Assembly: GCA_030603385.1 (NCBI GenBank)
Contig: JAUVXW010000004.1
Span: 64,001-128,000, forward strand
Direction of reading: 5' to 3'
From: Promethearchaeota archaeon
Lineage (GTDB): Archaea > Asgardarchaeota > Lokiarchaeia > Sigyniarchaeales > SOKP01
Length of the DNA stretch: 64,000 nt
Position 1 is the first letter of the stretch; every line of letters starts with the position of its first letter. Below, piece by piece: positions 8,600 through 57,273 of the stretch. Both the position numbers and the translations under genes were made by a program. The notes under the pieces were generated by a model. It saw only the letters and a program-made list of their open reading frames with translations. It was not told where the DNA came from and did not search any database.

Positions 8600-9573
8600 C
8601 TATATGTTAAAACCATCATCAAAATCATCATAATCTTCAAGGTCAAACCTTTTCCTTTCTTCTTCTTTCTTTTCTCTTTTAAGTTCTTTACGATCCTTAC
8701 GAGTAAGCTCATCTTTTCGTTTAACATAAATTTGTTCATATCTTTCTCTCAAAGCCTCAACATCTTCAACATGACCAATTTTGTCTTCCAATCCATCTTC
8801 AAAGAAAAAGTTCCGTTTGAATTTCTTAGCAGGAACACCCACATATATATAGTTTTTTTCTAAAACTTGTCCAACCGTCGTTACAGAATTAGCTGCTAAA
8901 ATACAATTATGCCCAATTTGAGTGCCTGGCATAACTATTGCGTGTGAACCAATCCTGACCTCATCTTCAATCACTGTCTTCCGTATTATCAACAAATTGC
9001 CTACGATTACAGCAGATTGGATGATTGCACCTTGTCCAACCACTACATCTTTTCCAAAATCTATAAATTCTGTATCAACCCATCCTTCGAACAAACTGTT
9101 CGAGATTTTAGTTTTTACTCCAAACATTTTGAAACAGACATTATCTAAAAATCCAGGGAAAGGGAATCTATGAGCAAGCCAGATTGGCCACCTTTTTATA
9201 GTATTCCGTAAACTCCAGTATCGGTAATCTTTATCTTCTGGAATTCTTAGGAAAACCCCTTCTCGAGGCTTATGAATTGCATTAACAATAAGTAGCAATA
9301 TTTTAGCAAAAATAATTGCTGAAAAAACAAGAGTTATATACATCAGAAATGCTAAAAGTGGTAGAAACGTGTAAAAATGAACGGGTCTTGCATAATTCCA
9401 TAAAAGTTGCCAATACACCCATAATTCCACGAGTATTGGTAATATACTTATCCAAATAAGAAAAATATAAAAAATCAAATAACGTTTCTTTACCAATACC
9501 GTCGGCGTGAATGGCCTTGTGTGAAAATGCGAATCGCATCTTACTCTACACGCATTGTATTTGGAACCGACAT
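8600..9573 (-). CDS. Membrane protein with left-handed beta-helix (hexapeptide) domain, type C. Intron-containing: exon 1 9573-9546, exon 2 9516-8600, 314 aa after splicing
   Basis: ATG 9573 has a GGAG SD. The spliced N-terminus MSVPNTMRVGPFTPTVLVKKRY aligns gap-free to paralog 27879 (MSVPASLNVGPNTTLTLVKKRY). Two TM helices and hexapeptide repeats (IEDEVRIGSHAIVMPGTQIG). Confidence 0.85.
9517..9545 (-). other. Putative 29-nt BHB-type mRNA intron
   Basis: Minus strand AATGC GTGT[AG^A]GT AAGATGCG ATT CGCATTTT C ACAC[AA^G]GCCATT. It has a 4-bp central helix, two 3-nt bulges and an 8-bp inner stem, contains an in-frame TAA, and its excision restores frame and a Gly codon. Confidence 0.8.
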
Positions 9574-9735
9574 TACTCTTCTCCTTTAACTTACTTATTT
9601 CTGTTTCTTTTTTACTACTTTTTTATTTAATTATTTAATAACTATAGATATTTACTAATATATCTTATTAACTAAAAATAAATCTTATAAATTATAAAAT
9701 CTACTTATAGTTAAAATTAGAAGTCCTCATTTTTG

Positions 9736-10884
9736 TTAGTTATTTAGAGCCATTTTGGTATAAATTGAAATAATATCTCCATCTTCAATTATATGGTTTA
9801 AATTAGCAATTTTTTGACCTGGATGTCTTGCAGAGTTCCCCCATATTAGCGAAAACCGAAAATCTTTTACAAATCTTTTATGAATCTTACGACAAAGAGT
9901 TTTCATGTTATCACCTTTATGAAGAATTATTGGTTCATCCATATCTGCTTCTTTTTTAGGAGGCTTTAAATATACTCGAATTAAATTCAATTCTTGGAAA
10001 ATACGATGGCGAAGTGCATTTATATTTTCTTGATTTTTTGCTGAAATCATGACCCAATGATTGTGCCCAATAGATTCCGTGATTTCTTCTGGTGAGAGTG
10101 GAATCTTCATCAAATCTACTTTATTAATTACAACAAATTCTTTTGTATAAACCCGATTTCCCATTATAAAATCAATTAATTGATCCGGTGTAGTATTTGG
10201 CTCAGAAAAATACACTCCTGCATTAAGAAGACCTAATTCGTTTGATAAAGCTTTAACCTCATTTTTATCCATTAATTGAGGGCCTTTTGAAGTGAAGTGA
10301 ATCCCACCTCGAGTTTATTCTTTAATAGAAATTCGTGATGGTCGACTATTTAAACGGATACCCGCATTATTTAGTTCATTTCTAATTTTTTTCAAATCTA
10401 GAAAATTGATGGTTCCATCTTCTCGAAAACAAATGATTATTAGAATCAATTCAGCTGTCCGTACAGCACCTAAGACTTGTTTCCCTTTACCTTTTCCGGT
10501 GGCGGCTCCTAATATGATACCTGGCAAATCTATCAGCTGTATTTTAGCATCCTCAATATTCATCATACCAGGAATGGCAGTTATTGTAGTAAAATCGTAA
10601 GCTGCTACTTTTGAATGAGTATCACCTTCAGTTAATAGGTTAAGCAATGATGATTTCCCAACGGATGGAAATCCAATAAAAGCTACTTGGGCATCACCCG
10701 ATTTTTTAATCCCAAAGCCCCCGCCACCTCCTTTCTTAGAACTCGCGATTTGAATCAAATTTTCTCGGAGTTTGGCTAATTGGGCTTTAATATAATTTAT
10801 ACTACGCTGAGTGCTCTTATTTGGGATAGTCTCTGCTAACCGTTCCTCAAGCTCCTTAATTCGATCTTCAACTTTTTCACTCAT
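9736..10884 (-). pseudogene. DRG/Rbg1-family OBG GTPase with TGS domain, interrupted by one in-frame TAA (10315-10317)
   Basis: GFPSVGKSSLL, YDFTT, DLPGII, C-terminal TGS domain (IWGNSARHPGQ). The two track ORFs are in one frame, joined by ISIKE*TRGGIHF. Confidence 0.8.
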
Positions 10885-11125
10885 TCCATGTATATAAAAC
10901 TACTATATCCAAAAAAATTTTCGAAAATTACCTAAGAAAAAGGTTTTTAATAAAGTTGATAATTTAGAAAAACATTTCAGAAGCCATTATGACGATATGG
11001 GTTATTAGTTGATGCCCATTGACCGAAATAATAGTTCGTAGAGGAATTTATTTTAGATAGATGGTAATAAAGAAAATTAAGTACTGAAAATTTTAAAAAT
11101 ATAACAAAAATAAAATAAAAGTTAA

Positions 11126-12343
11126 TTATTCCATTCTTTTCCTTCTGCGTCTTATTAACAGTAGGGCTGCTACACCAATCAATGCCCCTCCACTAATAAC
11201 CGAAATTAAAATAATCAGTTCGATTGGAATTCCACCATCTTGAGCTGAAATTGGACATTTCATTAATGGAAAATTGTCTTGACTTCCTCCAGTAATAATA
11301 TATGGTGTATCCCCAATTCCATCACCATCTTCGTCTGAACCCGTATAATCAGCCCAATAATTACCCTTAATTCCATTATCCCATTCATTAATAGCACCCT
11401 CATCATCAGCATTGAGAGTATTATTAAAACAATTTAGATATATGTTGTTAAATAAAGAAACATGCACGTTTATTCCAGCATCCCCGTTATGATTTACGGT
11501 GTTTCCTGTAATATTGTTATACAAACTACTCCATAAAGATATCCCCCATCTGTTGTTAAAGGAAATAACGCATTCAGATATAATGTTATTATCAGAATCA
11601 GTAATACCAATCCCAATATTATCATTATTATTTACAGTGTTTTCAGAAATAATGTTATTAATACAATCTCCTAAAATTACCCCATTCCAGTTGTTTTCAC
11701 ATATGTTTCCCGAAATGGTATTATTATCACTACTAAGGCCTAATGATATCCCCTCCCCATATTCTGCACCATTTACCGAATTTCCTGAAATTTCGTTATT
11801 ACTACTATGAGTTAAATATATTCCATCCACACTATTATTACTTACTGTATTTCCCGAAATTTCGTTATTGCTACTACTCGATACACGTATACCATGACCG
11901 TTATTATTTGAAACGTTATTGTTTATTAATAATCCATTACTCACTGATGATAATACGATACCCGCATTTGGATATTCAGCAGAATTATAAACTCTACAAT
12001 TTTCTATTTTGAAATACACATTGGAATTTGCAATCCAGATACAACTGCTAGAATTTTTCCCATCGATTATCAAATCTTCTATAACATACGGTTCAGAAAA
12101 GGTACCATTCCCCGTACAATTTCCCGCACTTTTAAAAGCAAGCCACCCAGAATTATCGTCAATATGAATTTTTCCCGAAACTGCTGAGATTTTTGGAATC
12201 TCGTTATTGAAAATAATATCATCGCTATAGCCCGAACTTTTGTTGTAATTGTCCGTAATATAACTAAGATTAGTGGTGATTATTGGTAATAATGCGAAAA
12301 GGATTCCTATGATGATTAAATTTGATTTTACATTTGATTTCAT
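11126..12343 (-). CDS. Membrane-anchored NosD/CASH right-handed beta-helix protein
   Basis: N-terminal signal/TM segment, repeated GIxLxxSxNNxISGNTVxxN, GNYWADY...DGDGIGDTPY, C-terminal TM plus RRRRKR. Confidence 0.85.
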   Translation of the reverse strand: MKSNVKSNLIIIGILFALLPIITTNLSYITDNYNKSSGYSDDIIFNNEIPKISAVSGKIHIDDNSGWLAFKSAGNCTGNGTFSEPYVIEDLIIDGKNSSSCIWIANSNVYFKIENCRVYNSAEYPNAGIVLSSVSNGLLINNNVSNNNGHGIRVSSSSNNEISGNTVSNNSVDGIYLTHSSNNEISGNSVNGAEYGEGISLGLSSDNNTISGNICENNWNGVILGDCINNIISENTVNNNDNIGIGITDSDNNIISECVISFNNRWGISLWSSLYNNITGNTVNHNGDAGINVHVSLFNNIYLNCFNNTLNADDEGAINEWDNGIKGNYWADYTGSDEDGDGIGDTPYIITGGSQDNFPLMKCPISAQDGGIPIELIILISVISGGALIGVAALLLIRRRRKRME

Positions 12344-12612
12344 ATTATTTTCACTATATTAGAAAAATATAATTTGTATGTGATTAGTAATTAAGGTAAT
12401 TTCCTTTATAACATTTCAATCTATTAAGGAATAAATCAATTAACATTTCTGTCAATTAAGTATAACGGGTTATAATAACAAGATTATTTTCTTATTTCAT
12501 AAATGCTCTCAAATGTTAGTTTTTGCCCTCTCTTTTACAATGTGAAACTTTTGGACTAATAAAATATTTAATTTGTTAATAATAAGCTTACTTCGCTGAA
12601 AATACTGATATT

Positions 12613-14505
12613 TTATTCCTCTTCGTCCTTTGTTTTTATTAAATCTTTTTTATCTTCATCTATATTTACTTCATGCGAAACTTCAAATTTTTTTGCTTCA
12701 TCTACATCTCTTTTCATAAGAATTTCTCTTTTTGATTCAGCGTACTTATTTTCTTTCAATTCTATAGCAGGTATACCAAAATATATCCAGCCAGGTTTTA
12801 AAACTTGATCGTAGGTGGTTGAACTAATTGCTCCAATTACAGATTCTTTTTTTATAATAGTTCCTGGTGCAATTGAAGTCTGTCCTCCAACCATAACATA
12901 GTCATCAAATAAAACACCCTTAATTAATAAATATTTTCCAACAACCATGGAAGACATAATGGTTGCCCCCTGTCCGATCAGAACTTTACGACCTAATTTA
13001 ATAAATTCAGAGTCACACCACGTATCAGCTAAATGACTTGAAAAATCCATATCAACCCCAAGTTGCTGAAAAGCTATTACATCTACCCATGGAAATGGTG
13101 AATTCCGTAAAAACCATAAAGAAATCTTCTTTATTTGCGTTCGGAGCTGCCAGAATTCAAAATCTGTGCTTCCTATTTGCGCTTTAAAAACGCCCTCTTT
13201 AGGTTTATGAATTAAATTTACTAATATTAAAAGTAATTTACTGAAAAGAATACACGCTACTATAAAGATGTATAGCAATCCAAATAAGATGACTGGAAAA
13301 AAAAGAAAAAATGGTAAATGAAATCTTATAGAATTTCCATCTATTATATCCCCGGAATACCAATACCATAGGATTGTAATAAGTAAACCTGAAATCCAAA
13401 ATATTGGTATATAGACTAACAAAAACTTTACATTCACTCTGCTTATCGCAGAGCTAGTTGTGAAATCAATCGCCAAATCTTCTTTTGAAAGACTATTAAT
13501 ATCTATTTTTTCTTCTTGTAAGTCATCCAACAATTGTGTGTTATTAGGAACTTTATCTGTTTTCTCTAATCTACGCTCTTTCTCTTTCAATTGATTTAAT
13601 AATTTTTTATCTTTATACTCTTCAATATTCGCATTCTTTTCTAGATCCTTTGGTTTAACATCTAAGTATTCCATAATCTTTCTTCTAAAGATTCTTCTCA
13701 TAGGCATTCCATAATAAAAGTGTTTTCCTCCCTTTAATACACTATGTTTCGGTGTAGAAGCTAGAGGTAATAGATATGAATCATCAAAAATCTCACATCC
13801 TGGGGCAATATTGGCAAATGCAGCAGATGTTACATTATTACCAACTTTAATTTTAAAATAGGAGATATTGCCAAAGATCCCCTCAACAAAATGGCTCGCT
13901 AATGTAGTATTCACACCAATATAACAGTTCTCGCCGCATTCTATAAATTTATCCATACCGACAGACTCCTCAAAGGTTGTACCTTTTCCAATTTTGTTTG
14001 AGCCAACAAAATTAAAAAACCAGTTGCTGAGCCAAGGAAATATACCCTTATTAAAAGTGTTTTTTCCGTATTTTATCATAAAAGCCCTGATATGATAATA
14101 ATTTGCTGTTCTACTTTTTACATTTCGTGGAATAATTCCAGATATCGATGGAGATGTTCTTTCCGTAATTCTCCATATAATTCGTGTGATTAACCCTATC
14201 AGAAATAAGTGAATTAAATAGCACATTATAAGAACTAATGGCATAAATAAAAGAGATATCAACGATTTAAAATCAGTAAAAATTGATATAAAACTAAGAT
14301 TTTCTAAAAAGTATATCCGAAAGGGAAAGAAAAAGTATAACAAAAAAACAAATCCGGGGATTACCCATGAAATGTAATAAATAATAAAGAAAATAATAAT
14401 ATACAAATGAAATTGAACACTTACCTCCTCTTTAATGACTTCATTATTCAATTCATTAGAAGAGGGATGTTCAATTTCACTGTCTTCGTTGTTCATTTCT
14501 ACCAT
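12613..14505 (-). CDS. Membrane protein with two TM+hexapeptide modules (AB fusion, copy 1)
   Basis: N-half resembles 28759-29688 and C-half (DFTTSSAISR...) resembles 27876-28766. Hexapeptide repeats in both halves. Confidence 0.8.
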   Translation of the reverse strand: MVEMNNEDSEIEHPSSNELNNEVIKEEVSVQFHLYIIIFFIIYYISWVIPGFVFLLYFFFPFRIYFLENLSFISIFTDFKSLISLLFMPLVLIMCYLIHLFLIGLITRIIWRITERTSPSISGIIPRNVKSRTANYYHIRAFMIKYGKNTFNKGIFPWLSNWFFNFVGSNKIGKGTTFEESVGMDKFIECGENCYIGVNTTLASHFVEGIFGNISYFKIKVGNNVTSAAFANIAPGCEIFDDSYLLPLASTPKHSVLKGGKHFYYGMPMRRIFRRKIMEYLDVKPKDLEKNANIEEYKDKKLLNQLKEKERRLEKTDKVPNNTQLLDDLQEEKIDINSLSKEDLAIDFTTSSAISRVNVKFLLVYIPIFWISGLLITILWYWYSGDIIDGNSIRFHLPFFLFFPVILFGLLYIFIVACILFSKLLLILVNLIHKPKEGVFKAQIGSTDFEFWQLRTQIKKISLWFLRNSPFPWVDVIAFQQLGVDMDFSSHLADTWCDSEFIKLGRKVLIGQGATIMSSMVVGKYLLIKGVLFDDYVMVGGQTSIAPGTIIKKESVIGAISSTTYDQVLKPGWIYFGIPAIELKENKYAESKREILMKRDVDEAKKFEVSHEVNIDEDKKDLIKTKDEEE

Positions 14506-14600
14506 TAAAAGCTTTGATTTGCAATTGATCCTTATTATATTTTAATAGATATTTTTTTCCTTTTAAATTTATGAGTCTTAAGCATAGATAAAGATTTGCT

Positions 14601-14996
14601 ATGAATAACAAATGTGAAAACTGTGGAAAATGTTGTTTAGATACAGAAATGATTCTTTCTTTTGAAGATATCGAATTAATAAAGAAAAATTCAATCGATA
14701 ATATAGGAGAAGGTGATTTTGTGTTTAAAAATGAAAATGAGCAATTTCAACTCAAAAACATTGATGGTCATTGCGTTTTTTTAAATTACTCTGCAAAGAA
14801 ATGTAACATTTATGAATTTCGACCTCAAGGATGTAGATTTTATCCATTAATCTATGATATTAACAAAAAAAAATGCTTACTTGATGATGATTGTCCTAAA
14901 AAGGATCAATTTTATAATACAAAACAAAGTCTAAAAATTACATGTTCGAATTTGAAAAGGTTTTTAGAACAACAATTTACTTTGAAAATTGATTAA
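14601..14996 (+). CDS. YkgJ family cysteine-cluster protein
   Basis: CENCGKCC ... CVFL ... CNIYEFRPQGCRFYP. Confidence 0.88.
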   Translation: MNNKCENCGKCCLDTEMILSFEDIELIKKNSIDNIGEGDFVFKNENEQFQLKNIDGHCVFLNYSAKKCNIYEFRPQGCRFYPLIYDINKKKCLLDDDCPKKDQFYNTKQSLKITCSNLKRFLEQQFTLKID

Positions 14997-15008
14997 AGTT
15001 GAGATATC

Positions 15009-16847: not shown

Positions 16848-17010
16848 TTTATTAAATTTTTAATTTTGATTTATATTTAGTAATTAAGATAATTTTTCTA
16901 AAAAACTCAATGTTTTAAAAATATGACCTAATTGTAAAATTGATTACTTGTTAAAAGAGTCTTTATAAAAGCAATTAAATATGAAAATAAATTAAAAAAT
17001 TAGAGGCTTT

Positions 17011-20343: not shown

Positions 20344-20358
20344 TATAAATTTTTATCC

Positions 20359-20827: not shown

Positions 20828-21067
20828 TTATACTGTCTTGCTTTTAGAGAGATTAAACCCAATTTTCCTTAAAATCCAATTTTCGATAAGAAACTCTTGT
20901 AGGATGTTTTCTTTTTTAGAATAGCTCGAGTCGATAAATCGTTTTGGAACCCAGAAAGAAATTCCATTATAAATCCTAATGAGAACTGATTTAGAAGTCT
21001 CATTCATGTAATATCCTTTTATTGTGCTACACAAATTAAAATCTTTTGGGATGATAGATTCTGTCAT
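20828..21067 (-). CDS. Small hypothetical protein
   Basis: 79-aa ORF with an ETSKSVLI...FWVPKRFI motif. Confidence 0.55.
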   Translation of the reverse strand: MTESIIPKDFNLCSTIKGYYMNETSKSVLIRIYNGISFWVPKRFIDSSYSKKENILQEFLIENWILRKIGFNLSKSKTV

Positions 21068-21128
21068 GAAATAAAGAAATGCCTAAATACATAAAAAAAG
21101 AAAAAGTGTGAAAATTTAGTAATTAAAT

Positions 21129-44325: not shown

Positions 44326-44335
44326 AAAGTAAGGA

Positions 44336-47631: not shown

Positions 47632-47774
47632 ATTATTATTATCTCATTATCGTTTTTAATCTAATAATTATTATACATCCATTAAAAATAATTAATATTA
47701 TTGTTATTATTAATCATAATCAATAAGGAATATCGAAATAAAATTTATAAAATGAGAATACAAATTCAAAAATT

Positions 47775-48626: not shown

Positions 48627-48629
48627 AAT

Positions 48630-49961
48630 TTACATCCCCTTTTTCTTTTTTACTACTTCAACTAATCTTTCTAGAATCTCTTTATCTGTTAAACAATCTC
48701 CAGGAGCATCTTTCACTTTTCTCAATCTGATCGGAACATTATCCATTCGATATGCTGTACCTTCACATTCAATTCCTGCAATAGCGGGAGGTAATATAAC
48801 ATCAGCATTCACAGAAGTCGGAGTATGATGCGGTTCAATTGATATTAAAGGATGTTTAAACATGTTTTTTACTGCTGCTGCTGGAAAATTGCTTGCAGGA
48901 TCGGATGCTACTATTAAAGATGCATCAATTTCATTTCTAATTAGTACATCAACAGATGAAAATTCTCCCGGATTATATCGGGGATATCCTTTTGAAAAAT
49001 CAATAGAATATGAATATCCTGTTTGCCATGTGAATACTTGATTTGCTCCAGCAACATTATAGTGCCCTCTCATTGGAGTTAATAAAAATTTCGTATAATC
49101 ATTTAATTCCCTTACTAAACAAATTGCTGCATCGACATTTCTATGGTGTGAAAGAGATTGTGTTAAACCCATCCCGAAAAAGATAACACCAAAGTTACAG
49201 GTTTTTAATTTGTTTACCAATTCAATAATATTTTCCATCGGAACTCCAGAAATTTCTTTGCTGTCTAATTCGGTACCCCTAAGAATGGCTCTAATTGCGT
49301 TTAATAATTCATAATCTTCACTTGGTTTTACTTGAACGAATAAATCCGCTATTTGAGCAGTGTGAAAATTTCTAGGATCAACAACTATTATAAATCTATC
49401 ATTTCTTCCATCTTTTCTAAAATATCCTCTTACAAACTCACTATATCTACTAAGATGTCTCGGATGAGCATGAACAGGATTACAACCCCAAAAAACTATA
49501 AGATCTGCTCTATTCTTATATTCCCCTAAAGTTGAGGTGGGGGCTCCAACATCTTGAATTGCTAATAATGATGGACCATGACATACAGAAGCAGTATTAT
49601 CTAATACAGCACCTAAAATTTCTGCTAATTCAACTCCTTTACCTTGAGCCTCACATTCAGTACTAGAAAATCCATATAGCAACGGTCTTTTAGCTTTTAC
49701 TAAGATATCCGCTGCTTTATTTAGTGCTTCATCCCAAGATACTTCCTTAAAAGAACCATTATATTTAATTAAAGGTTTTTCATATCGATGATCACTAGGA
49801 TTTGAAGCAAAATATTTTTTAGCACCTATTTGGCAGCCGTTTCTAACTTCTATAACTTTGTTTTCTTTAATATCAACATCTACTTCCAAATCATCACATA
49901 AAGTTCCACAAAAAGGACAAACTACATCTGTGATTGTATTGATTTTTTCTACCATATTCAA
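48630..49961 (-). CDS. fwdB: Formylmethanofuran dehydrogenase subunit B
   Basis: CPFCGTLCDD, VCHGP, NPVHAHPRH, PMRGHYNV, YRMDNVP. Confidence 0.93.
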   Translation of the reverse strand: MNMVEKINTITDVVCPFCGTLCDDLEVDVDIKENKVIEVRNGCQIGAKKYFASNPSDHRYEKPLIKYNGSFKEVSWDEALNKAADILVKAKRPLLYGFSSTECEAQGKGVELAEILGAVLDNTASVCHGPSLLAIQDVGAPTSTLGEYKNRADLIVFWGCNPVHAHPRHLSRYSEFVRGYFRKDGRNDRFIIVVDPRNFHTAQIADLFVQVKPSEDYELLNAIRAILRGTELDSKEISGVPMENIIELVNKLKTCNFGVIFFGMGLTQSLSHHRNVDAAICLVRELNDYTKFLLTPMRGHYNVAGANQVFTWQTGYSYSIDFSKGYPRYNPGEFSSVDVLIRNEIDASLIVASDPASNFPAAAVKNMFKHPLISIEPHHTPTSVNADVILPPAIAGIECEGTAYRMDNVPIRLRKVKDAPGDCLTDKEILERLVEVVKKKKGM

Positions 49962-50353: not shown

Positions 50354-50357
50354 TTTT

Positions 50358-51080
50358 CTATTCCTCCTTCTCTGCTTCACTCCATCGTAAAGTTTTTAAT
50401 CGTTCCAAAAGCGGTTCCCAAAACATTTTACTAAATTCTCCTGATGTTTTAACATCAGTAATCTCTAATTTAACCGCTCCCGTAGGACAACCATTGTCAC
50501 AAGAACCACAGAAAACGCATTTCTCTTCATCTACAGCCACATTTGGGACGGACTCCCATCCTTTATCTGATTTTTCTGGAACAGATATTGCCCCTGACGG
50601 ACATACCTCATAGCAAGTTTGACATCCACCAGGACATTCTTCATCAACGATGCTTATTTTCCCATCTGTATATTGTTTAACAACTCTTTCAATATCATTA
50701 TAACTAGCAATCTTTTTTGCTTCAAATTCCAATTTAGGAACAACATGTTCTTTTACTATTTGGATATCGTTTAGCTCAATGACTTCACCATCTTTTTTTA
50801 ATGTCAGGGCACTAAAAGGACACATATATACACAAGTTCCGCAGAAAACACAAGCTTCAGGGTCATATATCTCAGGTATTATATCTTCTAAAGTTGGAAA
50901 ACGACGGGATGTACCAACAGGGCCTCGTGAAATTGCGTCTTTGGGACAAACCCGGGCGCAAGTTCCGCAACCAATACATTTGGTTTTATCTAATATTAAT
51001 TCTAAACTTTCAGTAAGGAATTGAACTTTTACATGCTCTATCTCTTTACTAATTGATCTTGAAATTTTTGGAAATGAAAT
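50358..51080 (-). CDS. Polyferredoxin, FwdF-like (apparent ATT start)
   Basis: The frame stays open upstream of the track start to ATT 51080, 6 nt after GAGGTG. Four 4Fe-4S motifs (CIGCGTCARVCP, CVFCGTCVYMCP, CPGGCQTCYEVCP, CVFCGSCDNGCP). Confidence 0.8.
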   Translation of the reverse strand: MSFPKISRSISKEIEHVKVQFLTESLELILDKTKCIGCGTCARVCPKDAISRGPVGTSRRFPTLEDIIPEIYDPEACVFCGTCVYMCPFSALTLKKDGEVIELNDIQIVKEHVVPKLEFEAKKIASYNDIERVVKQYTDGKISIVDEECPGGCQTCYEVCPSGAISVPEKSDKGWESVPNVAVDEEKCVFCGSCDNGCPTGAVKLEITDVKTSGEFSKMFWEPLLERLKTLRWSEAEKEE

Positions 51081-51090
51081 TTAAAACACC

Positions 51091-51348
51091 TCATTTAACT
51101 TCAATTATTTCTAACAGTATTGCAGACTGGGGACAATTTTGAATGCAAACTCCACAGCCGTCGCAATTTACTTTTCGGTTTTCATCATAAACATCAAAAG
51201 CTATACCATTTTTGACCAATATTACCGCATTTTTTTCACTTAAAAAACTCTTAGTTTTTAATTGGTCAAAATTGATTGGACATGAGACCACACATATATT
51301 ACAACCAGTACAGATGTTTCGGTTAACTTTAAGCTTGTAAACTTGCAT
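51091..51348 (-). CDS. 2x[4Fe-4S] ferredoxin, FwdG-like
   Basis: CTGCNICVVSCP and CDGCGVCIQNCP. Confidence 0.82.
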   Translation of the reverse strand: MQVYKLKVNRNICTGCNICVVSCPINFDQLKTKSFLSEKNAVILVKNGIAFDVYDENRKVNCDGCGVCIQNCPQSAILLEIIEVK

Positions 51349-51641
51349 AATCTTCCCTTATTTTTAATTAGAGATAATAAAAAAGTCTGACAAAAGCGTA
51401 TAATTTTTGTAGCTTTAAAATTGATTAATAATTTCTTTCTATATGATGAATTATGTATTTAACTTAATTTGTAGAAAGTATATTTTTATAAAAAATTTGT
51501 TGTATGATTTATTAAGTTCAAATAATAAAAAGAGCTTAAATCAGAGATCGAAATTTTACTATTCCTTAAACTTATTAATTCCTACACGAATCTTATATTA
51601 ATTAGCTAATTTAATTTTGACTTTTATCGTAGTCTGATAAC

Positions 51642-52784
51642 ATGGAATCTACAAAAAGTGAAGATTGTCTTATTTTTTATGCTTTAACTCCCGAAATTAC
51701 TAAATTACGCCAAGTATATAATATAATCGGGAATTTTATGCAGAACAAGCAATCTATTGATCCTTCTGATCGATTTAATCTGATTTGGTTTCAAGATGAT
51801 GGGCCAAATTATTTAGATAATTTTACATTTGACCCAGAATATATTTCAAAGACTTTAAAGTCATTAGGTAAAGTTATTACTAAAGCAAATATCGCTGGTG
51901 GCGTATTTATTGCGATAACATTTATCATTGAAGTATTCAAAAAGATTTCTGAAAAGTTCTTTCGGTTATTGATATTGGTTGACGATGGCGCATATGAAAT
52001 CCCTGATGAATATCTCCCAGCACTTGAAGAATTAATTAAAAAAGTCAAGGATATGCCTTTTTTTATCGATATTATCTTGATGGGAAGTCCCTATTCTAAT
52101 CAAGCTCAGAAATTATTGAAACTAGCAAATTTATCGAATGGAGAATTATATGGAATCAAAAATATAAAAGATCTAAGTCCAATCTTAACAGAGTTATCAG
52201 AAAAGAAGCGTGTTTCAGAACCTTCGTTTGTAAAACAAAAATTACGAATGATACTCCCTGATAACCAACCATTTTACATAAATTTGGCGGATGACACTAA
52301 AAACGTTAATAATATAGCAACATGTTCCATTTGTTTTCATAAAGATGATCAGGGTATAGTAAAATGTCCTTCTTGTGATACTTCTGCTCATGAAGTATGT
52401 TGGGCACAATGGTCAGAAACTTCCAATATTGGAATTCCTCATGTGTTTAGATGCCATAATTGTTTCAATATATTAAAGCTTGATAAAGACTATATACGGG
52501 ATGTTCGAGCAGGAAAGATACCAACTATTGCAGAATTAACTAAAATGAAAAAAAGGAATATTATTGAATATCTGCATGAAATTGAATCTAAACGCGAACC
52601 TAAAGTTGTTCATACTGAAGATCCAATGGCAGTTGAAATTCGAGGGATGGTTGAAGCAACAAAATCGCAACCTAAAGAAGAAATTAAAAGAAAAAAAGTA
52701 TCAGTACATATTTGCCCTAATTGTAGCAAAATTATGATGGGTGATAGGAAAAACTGTCCTTCTTGTGGATTTGTTATGTTTTAG
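51642..52784 (+). CDS. vWA-like domain plus RING/PHD-like C4HC3 finger plus C-terminal zinc ribbon
   Basis: DRFNLIWF / LLILVDDG / IDIILMG / SNGELY vWA strands, CSIC..CPSC...HEVC..CHNC, and CPNC..CPSC. Confidence 0.65.
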   Translation: MESTKSEDCLIFYALTPEITKLRQVYNIIGNFMQNKQSIDPSDRFNLIWFQDDGPNYLDNFTFDPEYISKTLKSLGKVITKANIAGGVFIAITFIIEVFKKISEKFFRLLILVDDGAYEIPDEYLPALEELIKKVKDMPFFIDIILMGSPYSNQAQKLLKLANLSNGELYGIKNIKDLSPILTELSEKKRVSEPSFVKQKLRMILPDNQPFYINLADDTKNVNNIATCSICFHKDDQGIVKCPSCDTSAHEVCWAQWSETSNIGIPHVFRCHNCFNILKLDKDYIRDVRAGKIPTIAELTKMKKRNIIEYLHEIESKREPKVVHTEDPMAVEIRGMVEATKSQPKEEIKRKKVSVHICPNCSKIMMGDRKNCPSCGFVMF

Positions 52785-52945
52785 AAATATAAACTTAAAG
52801 CTAGAACGTAATAATACAATTATTTCATTCCTAAATCTTGGAATTGAGATTTTATAAACCATATATTTAAATAATTTAGGGCTAAAACTAATAATAAGTT
52901 GATTTAATAGGCTTTTTTAGACTTGTATTAATTTGGGTAAAAAAT

Positions 52946-54604
52946 ATGGATTCAGATGTATTTACTTTTCTTGTTGGAGGTAAAGCAGGAGAAGGAGTAA
53001 AAAAAGCAGGTTCTGTAGCAGCACATATGTTCTCGAGTATGGGTAGGCACATTTTCCAGATGGATGATTATATGAGTTTAATAAGAGGTGGTCATAACTT
53101 TTCTGTTGTAAGCACAGCTCCTAGATGGATTAGCAGTCATTATATGAAAGCAAATCTGGTTGTAAACTTTGATAAACGTAGCTGTGAAGCTCATATGAAC
53201 GATATTGCAGAAAAAGGGATAATGATTTTTAATTCTGATGAACAAGAAAATGAGCGCGGCATTGGAATTCCATTAACTTCAGAAGCAAAAAAATATCCGA
53301 TGAAAAGTTTAATGTATGGAGTAGGTGCCGTAGCTATTTTATCAGCTACAATTGGGTTTGAAAAAGAGAAAATGAATCAAATTATTGAAGAAGAATATTC
53401 AAGAGGAATAGAAGATAATATTGCTTTTGCCAACAAAATTTATGACTTAGTGTATCCTGATTGTGGCAAGAAATTTACATTAGATAAAGGAGATAAAAAG
53501 AGACCCATTATTACTGGAAATGAAGCAATTAGTCTAGGAGCAATAGCGGGGGGATTAGATGTTTATTATGGTTATCCTATGACTCCTGCATCAACAATCT
53601 TACACACACTCGCTCGTGAAGCTAATAATTTCGGTTTAGCTGTTGTTCATGCTGAAGGTGAAATTGCAGTCATTAATATGGCAATTGGCTCAGCTTTCAC
53701 AGGAGCAAGAGTCATGGTTGGCACGAGTGGTGGTGGTTTCGCTCTTATGACCGAAGGTTTCTCTTTAGCAGGTATCACGGAGGCTCCAGTATTAGTTATA
53801 TTATCTCAAAGACCGGGACCAGCAACTGGAGTTCCCACTTACACTGAACAAGCTGATTTAGCTTTTGCTTTGACAGCGGGGCATGGAGATTTCTTGAGAA
53901 TTGTGACTTCCCCTAGAACAGTTAGAGAAGCATATTATCTTTCAGGTGAAATGTTAAATTTAGTATGGAAATTTCAAACACCGGGGATAATATTAACTGA
54001 AAAACATCTTTCAGAGAGTAGCATGACGGTTGAAATTGATGTAGAGAAATCAAAATGGGAAGAGCCGAAAATGCATATAGTTGGTGATTATAAACGATAT
54101 TTAGATACTGATGATGGAGTTTCTCCTATGTTATTTCCACCATCAAACCAAATTATAAAATGGAATAGTTATGAACATGATGAATTTGGTATAACAACAG
54201 AAAATGCTGAGAAGATATCTTTAATGCACGATAAAAGAAATAAAAAGTTAAAAATACTAATAGAATACTTAAAGGGACAAGATACTGTTAGAATAATTCG
54301 TGGTGAAAATCCTACTAATATCTTCACCTATGGTTCAACTTATATGAGTGTTTTAGAAGCTCTTCGATATGCAAGTTTAAATCCCACAATCGTTGCGCCA
54401 ATTTATTTGAGTCCATTACCTATCTGGAAATTAGAAGAATTCAAAGAACAAGAAAATATCGTTATCGAGCAAAGCTCTACGGGACAATTTACTAAGCTCT
54501 TAAAAGAAAAAGCAGGGATGAAGATAAGAAATACAATTAAGAAGTATGACGGAAGACCATTTGATCCAATTGATTTAGCAAAAAAACTAAAGGAGGTGCT
54601 TTAA
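52946..54604 (+). CDS. 2-oxoacid:ferredoxin oxidoreductase alpha subunit
   Basis: GGKAGEG, IRGGHN, GYPMTPAS, TSGGGFALM, QRPGPATG. Confidence 0.92.
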   Translation: MDSDVFTFLVGGKAGEGVKKAGSVAAHMFSSMGRHIFQMDDYMSLIRGGHNFSVVSTAPRWISSHYMKANLVVNFDKRSCEAHMNDIAEKGIMIFNSDEQENERGIGIPLTSEAKKYPMKSLMYGVGAVAILSATIGFEKEKMNQIIEEEYSRGIEDNIAFANKIYDLVYPDCGKKFTLDKGDKKRPIITGNEAISLGAIAGGLDVYYGYPMTPASTILHTLAREANNFGLAVVHAEGEIAVINMAIGSAFTGARVMVGTSGGGFALMTEGFSLAGITEAPVLVILSQRPGPATGVPTYTEQADLAFALTAGHGDFLRIVTSPRTVREAYYLSGEMLNLVWKFQTPGIILTEKHLSESSMTVEIDVEKSKWEEPKMHIVGDYKRYLDTDDGVSPMLFPPSNQIIKWNSYEHDEFGITTENAEKISLMHDKRNKKLKILIEYLKGQDTVRIIRGENPTNIFTYGSTYMSVLEALRYASLNPTIVAPIYLSPLPIWKLEEFKEQENIVIEQSSTGQFTKLLKEKAGMKIRNTIKKYDGRPFDPIDLAKKLKEVL

Positions 54605-54608
54605 AAAA

Positions 54609-55448
54609 ATGGATGATCTTAAAACTTATGCTGAAATTACATGGTGCCCTGGATGTGGTAATTTTGGGATCTTTACAGCTGTAAGAAATGCAATCCCTCT
54701 TTTAGAAGAAAAAGGTATTAAGAGAGATAATATTGTAATAACTTCAGGGATTGGCTGTCATGGAAAAATTTTTGATTATCTTAATTTAAGTGGTTTTTAT
54801 GGACTACACGGTCGTAATTGTTCAAATTCAGAGGGTATAAAAATTGCAAATCCAGATTTAAAAGTAATTAACTTTTCTGGAGATGCGAATGGATTGGCGG
54901 AAGGTTTGGCACATACAATTTTCGCAGCAAAAAGAAACCAAGATATAACGTTTATTCTACATAATAACAGTGTTTACGCTCTCACAACGGGTCAATTTTC
55001 TCCATTAGCAGAAAAAGGTTGGAAAGGTCCATCTACACCCAGAGGAAGCTACGAAGAACCATTTAATCCGATGTCTTTAATGATCGAGGCAGGTGCAACT
55101 TTCGTAGCAAGAGGTTTTGCGGGAGATACAAAGCATCTCACTGATATTATAGTACAAGGAGTTGAACATGAAGGTTTTTCCTTCATAGAAATACTACAAC
55201 CTGCTGTTCCATACCATAAATGGACTGAATATAGAGAACAAGTTGAATACCTTGTAAAAGAACCGGAAACATATTTTAAAGCTTTTAAAGCTGCCAAGGA
55301 GAATCATAAATTTACTTTAGGGGTGTTTTATCGAACTCAAAGACCTGTTTATCACAAAGAGTTATATGCAGATCATAATCCTATAACAGATAGAATAAAT
55401 AGAAAGGTCAGGTTAGAGAAAATTCGGAAAATACTTGAATCCAAATGA
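54609..55448 (+). CDS. 2-oxoacid:ferredoxin oxidoreductase beta subunit
   Basis: WCPGCGNFG, SGIGC, LHGR, SGD..NN TPP motif, YALTTGQ. Confidence 0.92.
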   Translation: MDDLKTYAEITWCPGCGNFGIFTAVRNAIPLLEEKGIKRDNIVITSGIGCHGKIFDYLNLSGFYGLHGRNCSNSEGIKIANPDLKVINFSGDANGLAEGLAHTIFAAKRNQDITFILHNNSVYALTTGQFSPLAEKGWKGPSTPRGSYEEPFNPMSLMIEAGATFVARGFAGDTKHLTDIIVQGVEHEGFSFIEILQPAVPYHKWTEYREQVEYLVKEPETYFKAFKAAKENHKFTLGVFYRTQRPVYHKELYADHNPITDRINRKVRLEKIRKILESK

Positions 55449-55480
55449 AAGAATTTATGAATTTTGAAAATATTAGGTAT

Positions 55481-56008
55481 TTAGTTAAATGTATCGTAAA
55501 TCTTTTCAATTTCTTTAAGGATTTTTGAATATAGAGCAGAGGATATCCTAAATGTAGTATTTTCTACGAGATGATGGAGAAAATTTTTACATTTTTCTAT
55601 ACCAACAAATTTTAGGCGTGTTGCTTTGATGAGGACACCTAAAGTACCCGTGACTTTTAAGTCCAAAGTCCTAGCAATTTCCCGTGCTGCTAAATCATCA
55701 ATGATAATAATACTTTCACCAGTATTATCCTGAAGTTCCTTTGCAAGGGCTAATACTGACGCTTCTCCGGTATGAATGTGTAATTCCTCTAGTCTATCAA
55801 CGAGTTGCCTATTTATTGGTTCCTTTAATAAAAGCCAACTAGAAAAGGAATCTTTTAAAACTGTAAATTCAGCAACATTGTCATCGCTTAATACCTCTTT
55901 TTTAATGATTAATGTGGTGTAACATTCAGTAAAAAGCTTTGGTACTAAAGATAATGCACCAATTTTGCTTAGATATATCAAAGGTGAAGCATTTATAATT
56001 CCAATCAT
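55481..56008 (-). CDS. DUF3368-family PIN-like protein
   Basis: INASPLIYLSKIG, GEASVLALA, IIDDLAAR, VTGTLGVL. Confidence 0.85.
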   Translation of the reverse strand: MIGIINASPLIYLSKIGALSLVPKLFTECYTTLIIKKEVLSDDNVAEFTVLKDSFSSWLLLKEPINRQLVDRLEELHIHTGEASVLALAKELQDNTGESIIIIDDLAAREIARTLDLKVTGTLGVLIKATRLKFVGIEKCKNFLHHLVENTTFRISSALYSKILKEIEKIYDTFN

Positions 56009-56020
56009 ATTCTTGGCTAT

Positions 56021-56320
56021 TCAATCTAAGGCATATTCAATATCTTCCTTTATAGCTTGTTCATCGTATCCTGATACATTTCGCTTTTTTAATTCCTCCA
56101 TCATCTTTCTTAGCGAGACCCCAGCCTTTTCCGCAGCCTTCCAGGCACTCATGTTTTTTTCTCCTACTTGGTTACAAAGAACTACAAACATTTCCTCAGA
56201 TAGACTTTTCTCTAATAATTGACGGATGTAGGATGATTTATCTTTTTTTTTTAATCTTGCCATTAAAAACCTTAACTTTTCATCAAGATCATCATCTATT
56301 CTTACTGATAGAATTTTCAT
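56021..56320 (-). CDS. UPF0175-family/RHH partner (putative antitoxin)
   Basis: LSVRIDD RHH-like start and SAWKAAEKAGVS, upstream of DUF3368. Confidence 0.8.
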   Translation of the reverse strand: MKILSVRIDDDLDEKLRFLMARLKKKDKSSYIRQLLEKSLSEEMFVVLCNQVGEKNMSAWKAAEKAGVSLRKMMEELKKRNVSGYDEQAIKEDIEYALD

Positions 56321-56364
56321 GATTGTTCTATGTATACTAGATCATCTCTAGTATATATAATTAT

Positions 56365-56553
56365 TTGCAAGGGAGTCATTTTTGGGGGGATATCTATTAT
56401 GATGAAAGCTTTGATGTGACTATAGATTCGCTCGATAATGTTTACATTGTTGGTTCTTGTTGTTGCAGTTTTGGGGCAGGATCTAGGGACATGGTTTTGC
56501 TTAAATACATTCAAGATATATTTAAATCAATAATTAATTTTAATCGAATCTAG
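56365..56553 (+). pseudogene. SBBP beta-propeller repeat fragment
   Basis: WG..YYDESFDVTIDSLDNVYIVG...FGAGSRDMVLLKY single repeat with no convincing start. Confidence 0.5.
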
Positions 56554-56891
56554 ATAGAGTATAATATGGAGATCATAACCCTATTACTAACAGACTGTCG
56601 AGATATATACGATTAGATAAAATTCGCAAAAATCTTGAATCTAAATAAGGAACAAGTTTTATTTTTAAATAATATTTTAAGTAATATAAAAAAAAATAGT
56701 AGTATAGGATATTCGTTAATAAGACTTGATATTTTGGAAGTACAATCGAAAAGAAAATGAGAAATATTATAAGAAAAATTTAAATATAGAAATTTTTTTT
56801 TTGAGATAAAGCCTATTGTAATCATTTTCTTAGTTTGGAATTTTGTCGTTTATTTTTTTGTATTTTTTTCCCCATAAAATTAAGTATGGGC

Positions 56892-56906
56892 AAAAATCTT
56901 TAAATA
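56892..56906 (+). promoter_or_regulatory. Candidate BRE/TATA box for the histone gene
   Basis: AAAAATC followed by TTTAAATA (56899-56906), and a GGAGG SD at 56982-56986. The AT-rich background weakens this call. Confidence 0.4.
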
Positions 56907-56994
56907 TGTGGAAGATAATTATCTATATAACAAACTCTTGAAAAATAACAAAATTTAATAAAATAATAAAAAATTATTAGTGGAGGAAAAAAAA

Positions 56995-57273
56995 ATGGCA
57001 GGTTCTGAATATATTAGTTGGAGTCCTATTAGGCGCCTTATGAAACTATAATAATCAACTCGATTATTTCTTCAAAATAATGGCGCTTTAATCGTTGCTC
57101 GTGATGCAGTTAACGAGCTCGTTGAATGGATGGGTAGCTCCGCTGAGAAACTTACTAAAAGTGCTTTAACTTTAACTAAACACTCTAAAAGAAAGAAAAT
57201 CACGAGCTTCCTTTAGAATTCCTAAAAAAACGTGAAAAATGACATTCTTTTAGCGATTAAATACTTCAAATAA
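56995..57273 (+). CDS. Archaeal histone, 72 aa after removing two introns (exons 56995-57046, 57077-57206, 57237-57273)
   Basis: Spliced product MAGSEYISWSPIRRLMKHNGALIVARDAVNELVEWMGSSAEKLTKSALTLTKHSKRKKITRNDILLAIKYFK is an HMf-type histone fold (PIxRLMK..GA..V..DA; H.KRK.I...DI.LA). GGAGG SD present. Absent from the ORF track. Confidence 0.92.
57047..57076 (+). other. Putative 30-nt BHB-type mRNA intron 1 of the histone gene
   Basis: GCGCCTTA TGAA[AC^T]AT AATAATC AACTC GATTATT TC TTCA[AA^A]TAATGGCGC. Contains in-frame TAA TAA. Excision gives AAA CAT AAT (K-H-N). Confidence 0.85.
57207..57236 (+). other. Putative 30-nt BHB-type mRNA intron 2 of the histone gene
   Basis: CACG[AG^C]TTCC TTTAG AATTC CTAAA AAAA CGTG[AA^A]AATGAC. 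Contains in-frame TAG and TAA. Excision gives ACG AGA AAT GAC (T-R-N-D). Confidence 0.82.

What the first reader, a model, noticed from the sequence alone, without database searches (positions are those of the whole stretch)
9517..57236. Shared grammar of three mRNA micro-introns suggests a genome-wide non-spliceosomal splicing system
SEEN: three introns in 64 kb with unrelated primary sequence but common architecture. Each is 29-30 nt, has a perfect 4-bp central helix, a 5' bulge starting with A (ACU, AGC, AGA), a 3' bulge AAR so that the intron ends in AA, an imperfect junction then a short stem-loop, and at least one in-frame stop. All interrupt a codon (phase 1, 2 and 1). KNOWN: relaxed BHB/bulge-helix-loop substrates are cut by broad-specificity endonucleases ((alpha-beta)2, epsilon2), and eukaryotic HAC1/XBP1 mRNA splicing uses tRNA ligases. 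INFERENCE: if this density holds, many 'broken' or truncated genes in this lineage may be intron-containing. Splicing could act as a post-transcriptional switch, and this bears on intron evolution in the archaeal relatives of eukaryotes. I cannot verify how far this has been reported.
Basis: partly seen in the sequence, partly recalled or inferred. Interest (0 to 1): 0.92.

Follow-up and report, generated by a model that had tools for sequence, protein, structure and literature searches.

The report
tRNA-type mini-introns in Asgard protein genes
Three 29-30-base inserts that break a histone gene (twice) and a transferase gene of a Loki-type Asgard archaeon are shaped like tRNA introns. Related species lack them at exactly the predicted cut sites, so these mRNAs are almost certainly cut and re-joined by the tRNA-splicing enzymes. 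In the papers I could search, this is confirmed in archaeal coding sequence only for the gene cbf5.

Summary
The window holds three inserts: I1 (9517-9545, minus strand, 29 nt), I2 (57047-57076) and I3 (57207-57236), both 30 nt and both in one histone-fold gene.

- **Structure:** each has a perfect 4-bp central helix, two 3-nt bulges, a flanking helix, an inner hairpin and in-frame stops.
- **Comparative evidence:** cutting after the second bulge base restores the residues (Gly, His, Arg) found in uninterrupted orthologues of congeneric genomes (23 of 25 for I1; most of 19 genomes plus 79 of 80 metagenome loci for the histone).
- **Selection:** the I1 gene is under strong purifying selection between its two intron-bearing alleles (dN/dS 0.08).
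- **Enzymes:** the genome encodes a catalytic EndA with the broad-specificity loop, a second EndA lacking the catalytic His, and RtcB.
- **Census:** a motif-free comparison over about 43% of the coding capacity found 8 such introns. With I2 and I3 that makes 10 in 9 genes, all 29-32 nt, or roughly 20-25 per genome. This is far sparser than 3 per 64 kb.

Two things are missing. The only RNA run did not cover these genes, and my motif-first scan showed no enrichment because it was underpowered.

This scan has noted the same phenomenon before in this genome and in at least 41 Asgard genomes. I found no paper reporting it.

The parts
9517..9545 (-). Intron I1 (29 nt, phase 1) in a hexapeptide-repeat transferase gene. 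Layout: GUGU [AG|A] hairpin ACAC [AA|G].
   Evidence: It is absent from 23 of 25 congeneric orthologues, which read MSVPNTMRVGPFTPT without a break. Motif-free recovery.
9546..9573 (-). Exon 1 of the I1 gene: ATG at 9573-9571, encoding MSVPNTMRV plus the first base of the Gly codon. A GGAG lies upstream.
   Evidence: The nine residues are near-invariant in the 25 orthologues.
8600..9516 (-). Exon 2 of the I1 gene (hexapeptide-repeat transferase, stop codon included).
   Evidence: Pfam Hexapep, E 7e-11. dN/dS is 0.084 against the other intron-bearing allele, G003.
56995..57046 (+). Histone-fold gene, exon 1 (MAGSEYISWSPIRRLMK plus the C of the His codon). The Shine-Dalgarno GGAGG is at 56982-56986.
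   Evidence: DNA contigs of intronless relatives in two metagenomes diverge from the window exactly after 57046 (table 7).
57047..57076 (+). Intron I2 (30 nt, phase 1). Layout: UGAA [AC|U] au-7 bp stem-5 nt loop-uc UUCA [AA|A]. It holds TAA TAA in frame.
   Evidence: It is absent from orthologues L006-L023, which have His at the junction.
57077..57206 (+). Histone-fold gene, exon 2.
   Evidence: Pfam CBFD_NFYB_HMF: E 1.4e-8 for the intact orthologue and 1.8e-3 for this exon alone.
57207..57236 (+). Intron I3 (30 nt, phase 2). Layout: CACG [AG|C] 23 nt CGUG [AA|A]. It holds TAG and TAA in frame.
   Evidence: It is absent from most orthologues, which have Arg at the junction. G007 has a 30-nt intron at the same site with helix UACG/CGUA, a compensatory change.
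57237..57273 (+). Histone-fold gene, exon 3 (..NDILLAIKYFK, stop TAA at 57271-57273).
49903..49904 (-). Empty intron site in G000. A 97%-identical strain in metagenome run X1 carries a 29-nt insert here, in the gene at 48630..49961. Layout: GUGG [AA|U] hairpin CCGU [AA|C].
   Evidence: (table 4).

Best explanation
The three inserts are bulge-helix-bulge (tRNA-type) introns inside protein-coding genes of a Lokiarchaeia-type Asgard archaeon.

Proposed mechanism:
1. In the pre-mRNA, the last four exon bases before the 5' cut pair with four intron bases just before the 3' cut.
2. Two 3-nt bulges flank this helix, and the intron's own hairpin (plus, where present, a short exon-exon helix) holds the motif in shape.
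3. The heteromeric splicing endonuclease cuts after the second base of each bulge. It consists of the catalytic EndA on contig C44 and the His-less EndA paralogue on C9.
4. RtcB (C39) joins the exons.
5. This removes the stop codons and, for I1, the frameshift, so a full histone and a full transferase can be translated.

Because nearly all of the recognition structure lies in the intron, with only six exon bases involved, such introns can sit in almost any gene. About 20-25 appear to do so in this genome, and they are gained and lost between species and even between strains.

Shown here: the anatomy, the precise absence in relatives, selection on the exons, and the presence of the enzymes. Inferred: that cleavage and ligation actually happen on these mRNAs. 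I do not know of any function beyond being tolerated.
For: 1. **Exact junctions.** BHB cut sites give C|AU = His, AG|A = Arg and G|GG = Gly, which are the residues of uninterrupted orthologues.
2. **Canonical motif.** All three boundaries are canonical BHB, against a chance rate of 0.007 per exact boundary.
3. **Motif-free set.** Ten introns were recovered in G000 by protein comparison alone. Seven are canonical, with P about 7e-8 against a generous 4.9% null.
4. **Purifying selection.** The I1 gene has dN/dS 0.084 at dS 1.28 between G000 and G003, which both carry the intron. Both have intact 300-codon exons.
5. **Helix maintenance.** At the I3 site, G000 has CACG/CGUG and G007 has UACG/CGUA, a change on both sides of one pair. 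In G019, three of four intron substitutions fall in unpaired positions.
6. **Independent assemblies.** G019 carries I2 and I3, and G003 carries I1. This excludes an assembly artefact.
7. **Enzymes.** The EndA alpha is 8e-36 to the A. pernix catalytic subunit, keeps Tyr, His and Lys, and has K-P-R at the position of the specificity loop. The second EndA has His replaced by Thr. RtcB scores 558 bits. Papers PMC3241643 and PMC5829648 tie this loop and the (alpha-beta)2 type to relaxed and non-canonical substrates.
8. **Cut position.** The same position, between bulge bases 2 and 3, is documented for cbf5 pre-mRNA (PMC2738675).
Against: - There is no RNA evidence. The single metatranscriptome that holds part of this stretch has no contig over the histone gene, and I1 was outside the laid stretch.
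- My motif-first genome scans found no excess of frame-restoring BHB excisions over decoy helices or shifted frames. The background was hundreds to thousands against about 20 expected true cases, so the test was underpowered, but it is still a null result.
- The three window introns sit in genes with paralogues, so none is provably essential.
- I1 lies 10 codons into its gene, and a TTG at 9496 could start a shortened protein without splicing.
- G000 and G019 are too close (6 exon substitutions, dN/dS 0.5) to show selection on the doubly interrupted histone.
- The outer exon-exon helix of I3 is only 1 bp.
Confidence: 0.87

Rival explanations
1. The inserts are scars of small insertions (mobile or duplication-derived) that have inactivated the genes. 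On this reading the histone and the transferase are pseudogenes, and the BHB shape is incidental.
For: Both genes have paralogues in the genome. The G000-G019 histone comparison gives dN/dS 0.5 on only 6 changes. One intron elsewhere in the genome (proteasome alpha) is flanked by an 11-nt direct repeat resembling a target-site duplication.
Against: - The exons carry no other lesion.
- The I1 gene has dN/dS 0.084 across dS 1.28 between two intron-bearing alleles.
- The boundaries are canonical BHB far beyond chance.
- The same kind of insert sits in uvrB, proteasome alpha and thioredoxin.
- The three window inserts have no consistent target duplications.
Confidence: 0.05
2. The ribosome bypasses the inserts during translation (programmed hopping, as in phage T4 gene 60), without any RNA splicing.
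For: The gaps are short, contain a stop codon soon after the take-off point, and fold into a hairpin. These features also occur in gene 60 (my own knowledge).
Against: - I found no matching take-off and landing codons.
- The orthologous residues at the junctions (His, Arg, Gly) are obtained only by joining split codons at the BHB cut sites. Whole-codon hopping would give Asn or Arg in their place.
- The helix and bulge geometry is that of EndA substrates, and a compensatory change keeps it.
Confidence: 0.03
3. For I1 only: the intron is real DNA but does not need to be removed. Translation starts at the TTG at 9496 downstream of it and yields a protein lacking 16 N-terminal residues.
For: ORF-listing runs a 298-aa ORF from TTG 9496. 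The intron lies only 28 nt into the gene.
Against: The N-terminal MSVPNTMRVGPFTPTV is conserved in all 25 orthologues. In both intron-bearing genomes, exon 1, its ATG and the BHB are intact. Exon 1 and the 5' half of the intron are identical over 46 nt, although the rest of the gene is only about 80% identical.
Confidence: 0.08
4. The inserts are assembly or binning artefacts of a metagenome-assembled genome.
For: The genome is a MAG with 7% estimated contamination.
Against: The same inserts occur, with a few substitutions, in independently assembled genomes: G019 for I2 and I3, G003 for I1. DNA contigs of four public metagenomes cover the region, and none reports a 30-nt deletion there.
Confidence: 0.01

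Closest known systems
cbf5 pre-mRNA intron of Crenarchaeota (Aeropyrum, Sulfolobales, Desulfurococcales; Watanabe 2002, Yoshinari 2006, Yokobori 2009 = PMC2738675)
   Same: It is a BHB or relaxed-BHB intron inside a protein-coding gene. It is cut between bulge bases 2 and 3 by a hetero-oligomeric splicing endonuclease. It interrupts a codon, and it shows gain and loss among related species.
   Different: cbf5 is one gene with one intron per genome in thermophilic Crenarchaeota. Here I found at least 10 introns in 9 unrelated genes, none of them cbf5, with an estimate of about 20-25 per genome. Two sit in a single 72-codon gene. Their length is uniform at 29-32 nt, they mostly end in AA, they occur in a mesophilic Asgard lineage, and they are polymorphic between strains. 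cbf5 splicing is shown at the RNA level; this is not.
Archaeal tRNA and rRNA BHB introns cut by EndA and joined by RtcB, including the heavily interrupted tRNA genes of Asgard archaea (bioRxiv 10.64898/2026.10.13.758758; PMC5829648)
   Same: The motif geometry is the same and so, presumably, are the enzymes. Like most Asgard genomes in that preprint, this genome has two full-length EndA paralogues. Only 18-23 tRNA genes are detectable, which fits many hidden tRNA introns.
   Different: The host RNA is an mRNA, with no tRNA body to help recognition. The clear tRNA introns of this genome are shorter (19-27 nt) and their bulges are more variable. That preprint does not mention protein genes.
HAC1/XBP1 unconventional mRNA splicing (Ire1 plus tRNA ligase or RtcB) in eukaryotes
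   Same: It is spliceosome-independent splicing of an mRNA by a protein endonuclease. It leaves 2',3'-cyclic phosphate and 5'-OH ends, which are sealed by a tRNA ligase (RtcB in animals). It changes the reading frame or the stop codon.
   Different: The nuclease (Ire1) and the recognition element (twin stem-loops) are different. It acts on a single regulated target. I searched for no Ire1 homologue here.
BHB-containing 5' UTR and other EndA substrates in Haloferax volcanii (PMC7714728)
   Same: An mRNA is a substrate of the tRNA splicing endonuclease.
   Different: That site lies outside the coding sequence and is not needed to restore a reading frame (abstract and the scan's earlier notes; I did not read the paper in full).

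Membership tests
BHB (archaeal tRNA-type) intron removed by EndA and RtcB | [quoted passage not shown] | tested here: met
   I1 GUGU/ACAC, I2 UGAA/UUCA and I3 CACG/CGUG are all 4/4 Watson-Crick with 3-nt bulges.
BHB (archaeal tRNA-type) intron removed by EndA and RtcB | At least one flanking helix (h from exons or h' from the intron) of 2 bp or more, i.e. the canonical hBHBh', hBH or HBh' classes | tested here: met
   I1 has h of 2 bp, I2 has h of 3 bp, and I3 has h' of 2 bp followed by a 5-bp stem. The chance rate of a canonical motif is 0.007.
BHB (archaeal tRNA-type) intron removed by EndA and RtcB | Cutting between bulge bases 2 and 3 and joining the exons yields the functional product | tested here: met
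   The junction codons become His, Arg and Gly, as in uninterrupted orthologues. The cut-position rule is taken from PMC2738675.
BHB (archaeal tRNA-type) intron removed by EndA and RtcB | The genome encodes a splicing endonuclease able to cut relaxed or non-tRNA substrates ((alpha-beta)2 or epsilon2 type with the specificity loop) | tested here: met
   Two full-length EndA paralogues are present. One has Tyr, His and Lys and K-P-R aligned to A. pernix K44-R46. The other has His replaced by Thr. That the two form a heterotetramer is inferred, not shown.
BHB (archaeal tRNA-type) intron removed by EndA and RtcB | The RtcB-type 3'-phosphate RNA ligase is present | tested here: met
   One RtcB, 558 bits, in an open frame of 496 aa.
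BHB (archaeal tRNA-type) intron removed by EndA and RtcB | The helices are kept by compensatory change across homologous introns | tested here: inconclusive
   There is one double change in the central helix at the I3 site (C-G to U-A, G000 against G007). Loop-only changes occur in I2 of G019. One change in G019 I3 breaks a pair. There are too few alleles for statistics.
BHB (archaeal tRNA-type) intron removed by EndA and RtcB | The spliced RNA (and the excised or circular intron) is observed | not testable with these tools
   The one RNA run found has no contig on the histone gene, and I1 was outside the laid stretch.
cbf5-type pre-mRNA intron (orthologous intron) | It lies in the cbf5 / pseudouridine synthase gene at the catalytic Asp codon | tested here: not met
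   The host genes are a histone-fold protein and a hexapeptide transferase. The mechanism is the same, but these are not orthologous introns.
Self-splicing group I or group II intron | A ribozyme core of hundreds of bases | tested here: not met
   The inserts are 29-30 nt, and the window has no Rfam family hit.
Programmed translational bypass (T4 gene 60 type) | Matching take-off and landing codons, with the product read from whole codons on both sides | tested here: not met
   There are no matching codons. The conserved junction residues need split codons joined at the BHB sites.

The most novel reading that the evidence does not exclude
Loki-type Asgard archaea carry a population of uniform 29-32-nt tRNA-type introns in their protein-coding genes, about 20 or more per genome. 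This population is actively turning over. Introns are gained, lost and possibly transferred together with flanking exon sequence between species and strains, and they land repeatedly in small, highly expressed genes such as histones (five different sites in one family). Routine mRNA splicing with intron gain-and-loss dynamics would then exist in the closest prokaryotic relatives of eukaryotes, run by the tRNA-splicing enzymes and independent of any spliceosome.
Probability: 0.55. Interest if true: 0.88.

Novelty: new variant of a known kind. Interest (0 to 1): 0.78.

Why it matters
According to the papers I could search, splicing of archaeal protein-coding transcripts rests on a single confirmed gene, cbf5. 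If dozens of mRNAs per genome in Asgard archaea must be cut and re-joined by EndA and RtcB, several things follow:

- **Annotation.** Gene callers systematically mis-annotate these genomes by splitting or truncating histones, uvrB, proteasome subunits and other genes.
- **Translation.** In a prokaryote without a nucleus, translation must somehow wait for splicing or tolerate unspliced mRNA.
- **Intron evolution.** How introns enter, persist in and leave protein genes becomes testable in the lineage closest to eukaryotes. The system is simple and protein-only, and it has clear presence/absence polymorphism.

The uniform size and the terminal AA also give a concrete search model for annotating such introns.

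Tried and rejected
1. **Motif-first scans.** I ran genome-wide scans for frame-restoring BHB excisions against two controls: a complement-not-reversed decoy helix and a +/-1 nt frame control. Neither showed a usable excess. For example, 423 against 322/376 for the real helix, and 379 against 300/348 for the decoy. Background swamps about 20 true cases, so I dropped this approach in favour of the homology-first census.
2. **RNA evidence.** The one search for runs returned a single small metatranscriptome, X20. Its contigs cover 48.7-51.2 kb and 59.5-61.0 kb of the window but not the histone gene. I1 was outside the laid stretch. Nothing can be said about splicing.
3. **Window-level RNA scans.** ARAGORN and Rfam found nothing in the window.
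4. **16S rRNA.** I did not find it in the genome. I named the lineage from the record titles of relatives instead.
5. **The split DRG GTPase next to I1.** I considered it as a fourth intron and rejected it. It is a single in-frame TAA where the nearest relative has CAA.
6. **Several census hits.** I rejected several tblastn 'breaks' as gene starts, low-complexity sequence or antisense frames.
7. **First metagenome locus search.** I repeated the search with the intact orthologue.
8. **Shared tRNA grammar.** This is only partly borne out. The clear tRNA introns are 19-27 nt with mixed bulges.

Full report
**What is in the window.**
The window is AT-rich; the whole genome has 31% G+C. It belongs to contig C36 of a 3.9-Mb metagenome-assembled genome of 58 contigs. 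Close relatives found by protein search are MAGs titled Promethearchaeota / Promethearchaeia, such as Loki_b32 and ABR05. DNA holders are cold-seep, subsurface and marine-sediment metagenomes.

The three inserts are as follows.
- **I1** lies on the minus strand at 9545..9517 (29 nt).
- **I2** (57047-57076) and **I3** (57207-57236) are both 30 nt and both lie in one small plus-strand gene (ATG 56995, stop 57271-57273).
- Read straight through, that gene gives MAGSEYISWSPIRRLMKL**STRLFLQNNGA...KKITSFL*NS*KNVKNDILLAIKYFK.

**Anatomy.**
Written as helix [bulge, cut after base 2] interior helix' [bulge], the three are:
- I1: GUGU [AG|A] 22 nt ACAC [AA|G]
- I2: UGAA [AC|U] 23 nt UUCA [AA|A]
- I3: CACG [AG|C] 23 nt CGUG [AA|A]

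Each central helix is 4/4 Watson-Crick. Each motif has a flanking helix of 2 bp or more. Each interior is a hairpin set off by a short imperfect junction: an 8-bp stem in I1, a 7-bp stem with a 5-nt loop in I2, and a 5-bp stem with a 5-nt loop in I3.

In this genome, a random exact 29/30-nt boundary is canonical BHB with probability 0.007. It also carries the A-start and AA bulges with probability 0.0003.

**Comparative test.**
For the histone gene I fetched orthologues from 19 congeneric genomes.
- Most are uninterrupted ORFs of about 70 codons. An example is MAGSEYISWSPIRRLMKHNGAIIVARDAV...KKITRNDILLAIKYF.
- Cutting G000 at the BHB sites gives C|AU = His and AG|A = Arg, which are the residues of the intact genes.
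- The intact orthologue scores above the Pfam cut-off for the archaeal histone family.
- G019 has the same two introns with two substitutions each. Three of these four substitutions are in unpaired positions.
- G007 has a 30-nt intron at the I3 site with a different interior and the helix UACG/CGUA in place of CACG/CGUG, a change on both sides of one pair.
- G020 has a 30-nt intron at another site. One metagenome contig (L293) has one at yet another site. The other 79 of 80 metagenome orthologues are uninterrupted.
- A histone paralogue on contig C6 of G000 has its own 30-nt intron.

For I1, 23 of 25 congeneric orthologues read MSVPNTMRVGPFTPTV without a break. That is the product predicted by joining G|GG. 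Only G003 shares the intron; there it is 30 nt, with an altered hairpin and a UA|G bulge.

A motif-free protein comparison of the whole window with nine syntenic pieces of relatives recovered exactly I1, I2 and I3. It found nothing else in the half of the window that has orthologue cover.

**Are the genes alive?**
The I1 gene compared between its two intron-bearing alleles (G000 and G003) has dN/dS 0.084 at dS 1.28. Its exons are intact. That is hard to reconcile with a gene that is dead 10 codons after its start.

The histone comparison between G000 and G019 is uninformative, with only six changes. Against an intronless orthologue, dN/dS is 0.065.

A caveat for I1 is the possible downstream TTG start at 9496. 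Against it, exon 1 is conserved in all orthologues.

**Enzymes.**
The genome has two full-length EndA paralogues and one RtcB.
- The C44 protein (198 aa) is closest to the catalytic alpha subunit of the Aeropyrum pernix heterotetramer (E 8e-36). It keeps the catalytic Tyr, His and Lys, and it has K-P-R aligned to K44-P-R46 of the crenarchaeal specificity loop. PMC3241643 shows that this loop and its Lys confer broad substrate range.
- The C9 protein (200 aa) has Thr at the catalytic His position. This fits a structural beta-like subunit.
- PMC5829648 reports (alpha-beta)2 EndA with this loop across Asgard. The 2026 preprint on Asgard tRNA introns found two paralogues in 44 of 60 genomes.

**Is it genome-wide?**
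My motif-first scans with decoy controls gave no detectable excess. The background of chance BHB-like excisions that happen to join open frames runs to hundreds or thousands.

I therefore made a motif-free census. I compared ORFs from 2.0 Mb of a complete congeneric chromosome (G006) with G000 by tblastn, using a routine that looks for orthologue alignments broken by short inserts. This covered 474,000 aligned residues, about 43% of the coding capacity. It found eight introns in G000:
- I1
- uvrB (C4:251907-251936)
- a small GTPase (C1)
- the C6 histone
- a gene 9 kb beyond the window (C36:136995-137023)
- thioredoxin (C51:66051-66080)
- a dodecin-like gene (C11, about 21067-21098)
- proteasome alpha (C17:41993-42024)

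With I2 and I3, that makes ten introns in nine genes on eight contigs, all 29-32 nt. Seven of the ten are canonical BHB at boundaries fixed by the protein alignment. Even against a generous 4.9% null, P is about 7e-8.

Extrapolation gives roughly 20-25 per genome, or one per 150-200 kb. The 3 per 64 kb seen in this window is a local cluster.

G006 itself carries introns that G000 lacks: an uppS-like gene (30 nt) and a gyrB-like gene (about 53 nt).

**Grammar.**
Across 13 introns of this genus:
- The sequences are unrelated, at 34% identity against 29% for shuffles.
- Eleven end in AA, and 12 have A at the second-to-last position.
- Of the 12 whose 5' bulge I tallied, nine start with A.
- Most interiors are 22-23 nt, with a 5-9-bp stem and a 3-5-nt loop.

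Phase is not fixed: the uvrB, thioredoxin and proteasome introns are phase 0. The clear tRNA introns of this genome are 19-27 nt with mixed bulges. The mRNA introns therefore form a tighter class than the tRNA introns. Only 18-23 tRNA genes are detectable at all, which fits the heavily interrupted tRNA genes reported for Asgard archaea.

**Turnover.**
A DNA contig of a 97%-identical strain in run X1 carries a 29-nt insert of the same architecture at window 49903, in the gene at 48630..49961. G000 lacks it. In two metagenomes, DNA contigs of intronless relatives part from the window exactly after 57046, the last base of histone exon 1 (table 7).

G000 and G003 are not each other's closest relatives for the I1 gene, yet only they share I1. 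They are identical over 46 nt, spanning exon 1 and the 5' half of the intron, while the rest of the gene is about 80% identical and the upstream DNA is unrelated. This hints at transfer or conversion of the intron together with flanking exon sequence, or at an unusually strong constraint on that segment.

**What is missing.**
RNA evidence is missing. The single RNA run found does not cover the histone gene, and I1 was outside the laid stretch. Splicing is therefore inferred, not shown.

**Literature and earlier notes.**
My searches of open papers and preprints found archaeal coding-sequence splicing documented only for cbf5. The 2009 paper states that introns in other protein genes were predicted but not confirmed. 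The October 2026 preprint on Asgard tRNA introns does not mention protein genes. Subscription journals are not covered.

This scan's own earlier notes report the same phenomenon in at least 41 Asgard genomes. In this same genome they list uvrB, a histone, proteasome alpha, RNase HII, uL11, moxR, an RNA polymerase subunit, a mutase and a scramblase-like gene. My census independently re-found uvrB, the C6 histone and proteasome alpha. I did not test the others.

**Verdict.**
The kind of element is known from cbf5. What is new is the scale, the uniform form, the lineage and the strain-level turnover.

Noticed in passing
window 10315-10317 (minus strand), between ORFs 10318-10899 and 9736-10314: The DRG-type GTPase (MMR_HSR1 + MMR_HSR1_Xtn + TGS) next to the I1 gene carries a single in-frame TAA. 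The closest relative (G004) has CAA (Gln) at that position, and two others have CGC (Arg). No insert or BHB is present. It is a nonsense change, a population variant, a sequencing error or a read-through site.
   Followed up: partly
window 49903/49904, gene 48630..49961 (minus strand): A 97%-identical strain in metagenome run X1 has a 29-nt BHB-type insert here: GUGG [AA|U] 7-bp hairpin CCGU [AA|C]. It sits after ..VVCPFCG of a Cys-rich protein. G000 and the other runs lack it. This is strain-level presence/absence of an mRNA intron.
   Followed up: partly
window 9528-9573 (minus strand) against L031 (G003): G000 and G003, the only two genomes with intron I1, are identical over 46 nt (exon 1 plus the 5' half of the intron). 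The rest of the gene is about 80% identical and the upstream DNA is unrelated. Genomes closer to G000 for this gene lack the intron. This could be co-transfer of the intron with flanking exon sequence, or a strong constraint.
   Followed up: partly
G000 contig C17:41982-42035 (outside the window): The 32-nt intron in the proteasome alpha gene is bounded by an 11-nt direct repeat (GAGTACTAATC). Its central helix GUAC is a palindrome and both bulges are UAA. It looks like a target-site or tandem duplication, and may be a clue to how such introns arise.
   Followed up: no
Histone family: window 56995-57273; G000 C6:1296-1325; L011, L022, L293: One small histone family carries 30-nt introns at five different positions in different genomes, and two in the same gene here. 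Most orthologues have none. Histone genes look like recurrent targets.
   Followed up: partly
whole genome G000: In a genome that is 94% complete, ARAGORN finds only 18 tRNA genes and the Rfam tRNA model finds 23. Several are 90-105 nt long and contain BHB introns. ARAGORN's 'tRNA-Pyl' call on C27 looks more like an intron-containing tRNA-Pro.
   Followed up: partly
G006 chromosome samples (loci L129-L231): The relative G006 has its own mRNA introns that G000 lacks: a 30-nt insert in an uppS-like gene (..LIVDG / NRRWAK..) and an insert of about 53 nt near the start of a gyrB-like gene (..LKGLEGV / RRRPAMYIG..). I did not draw the BHB of the 53-nt insert.
   Followed up: no
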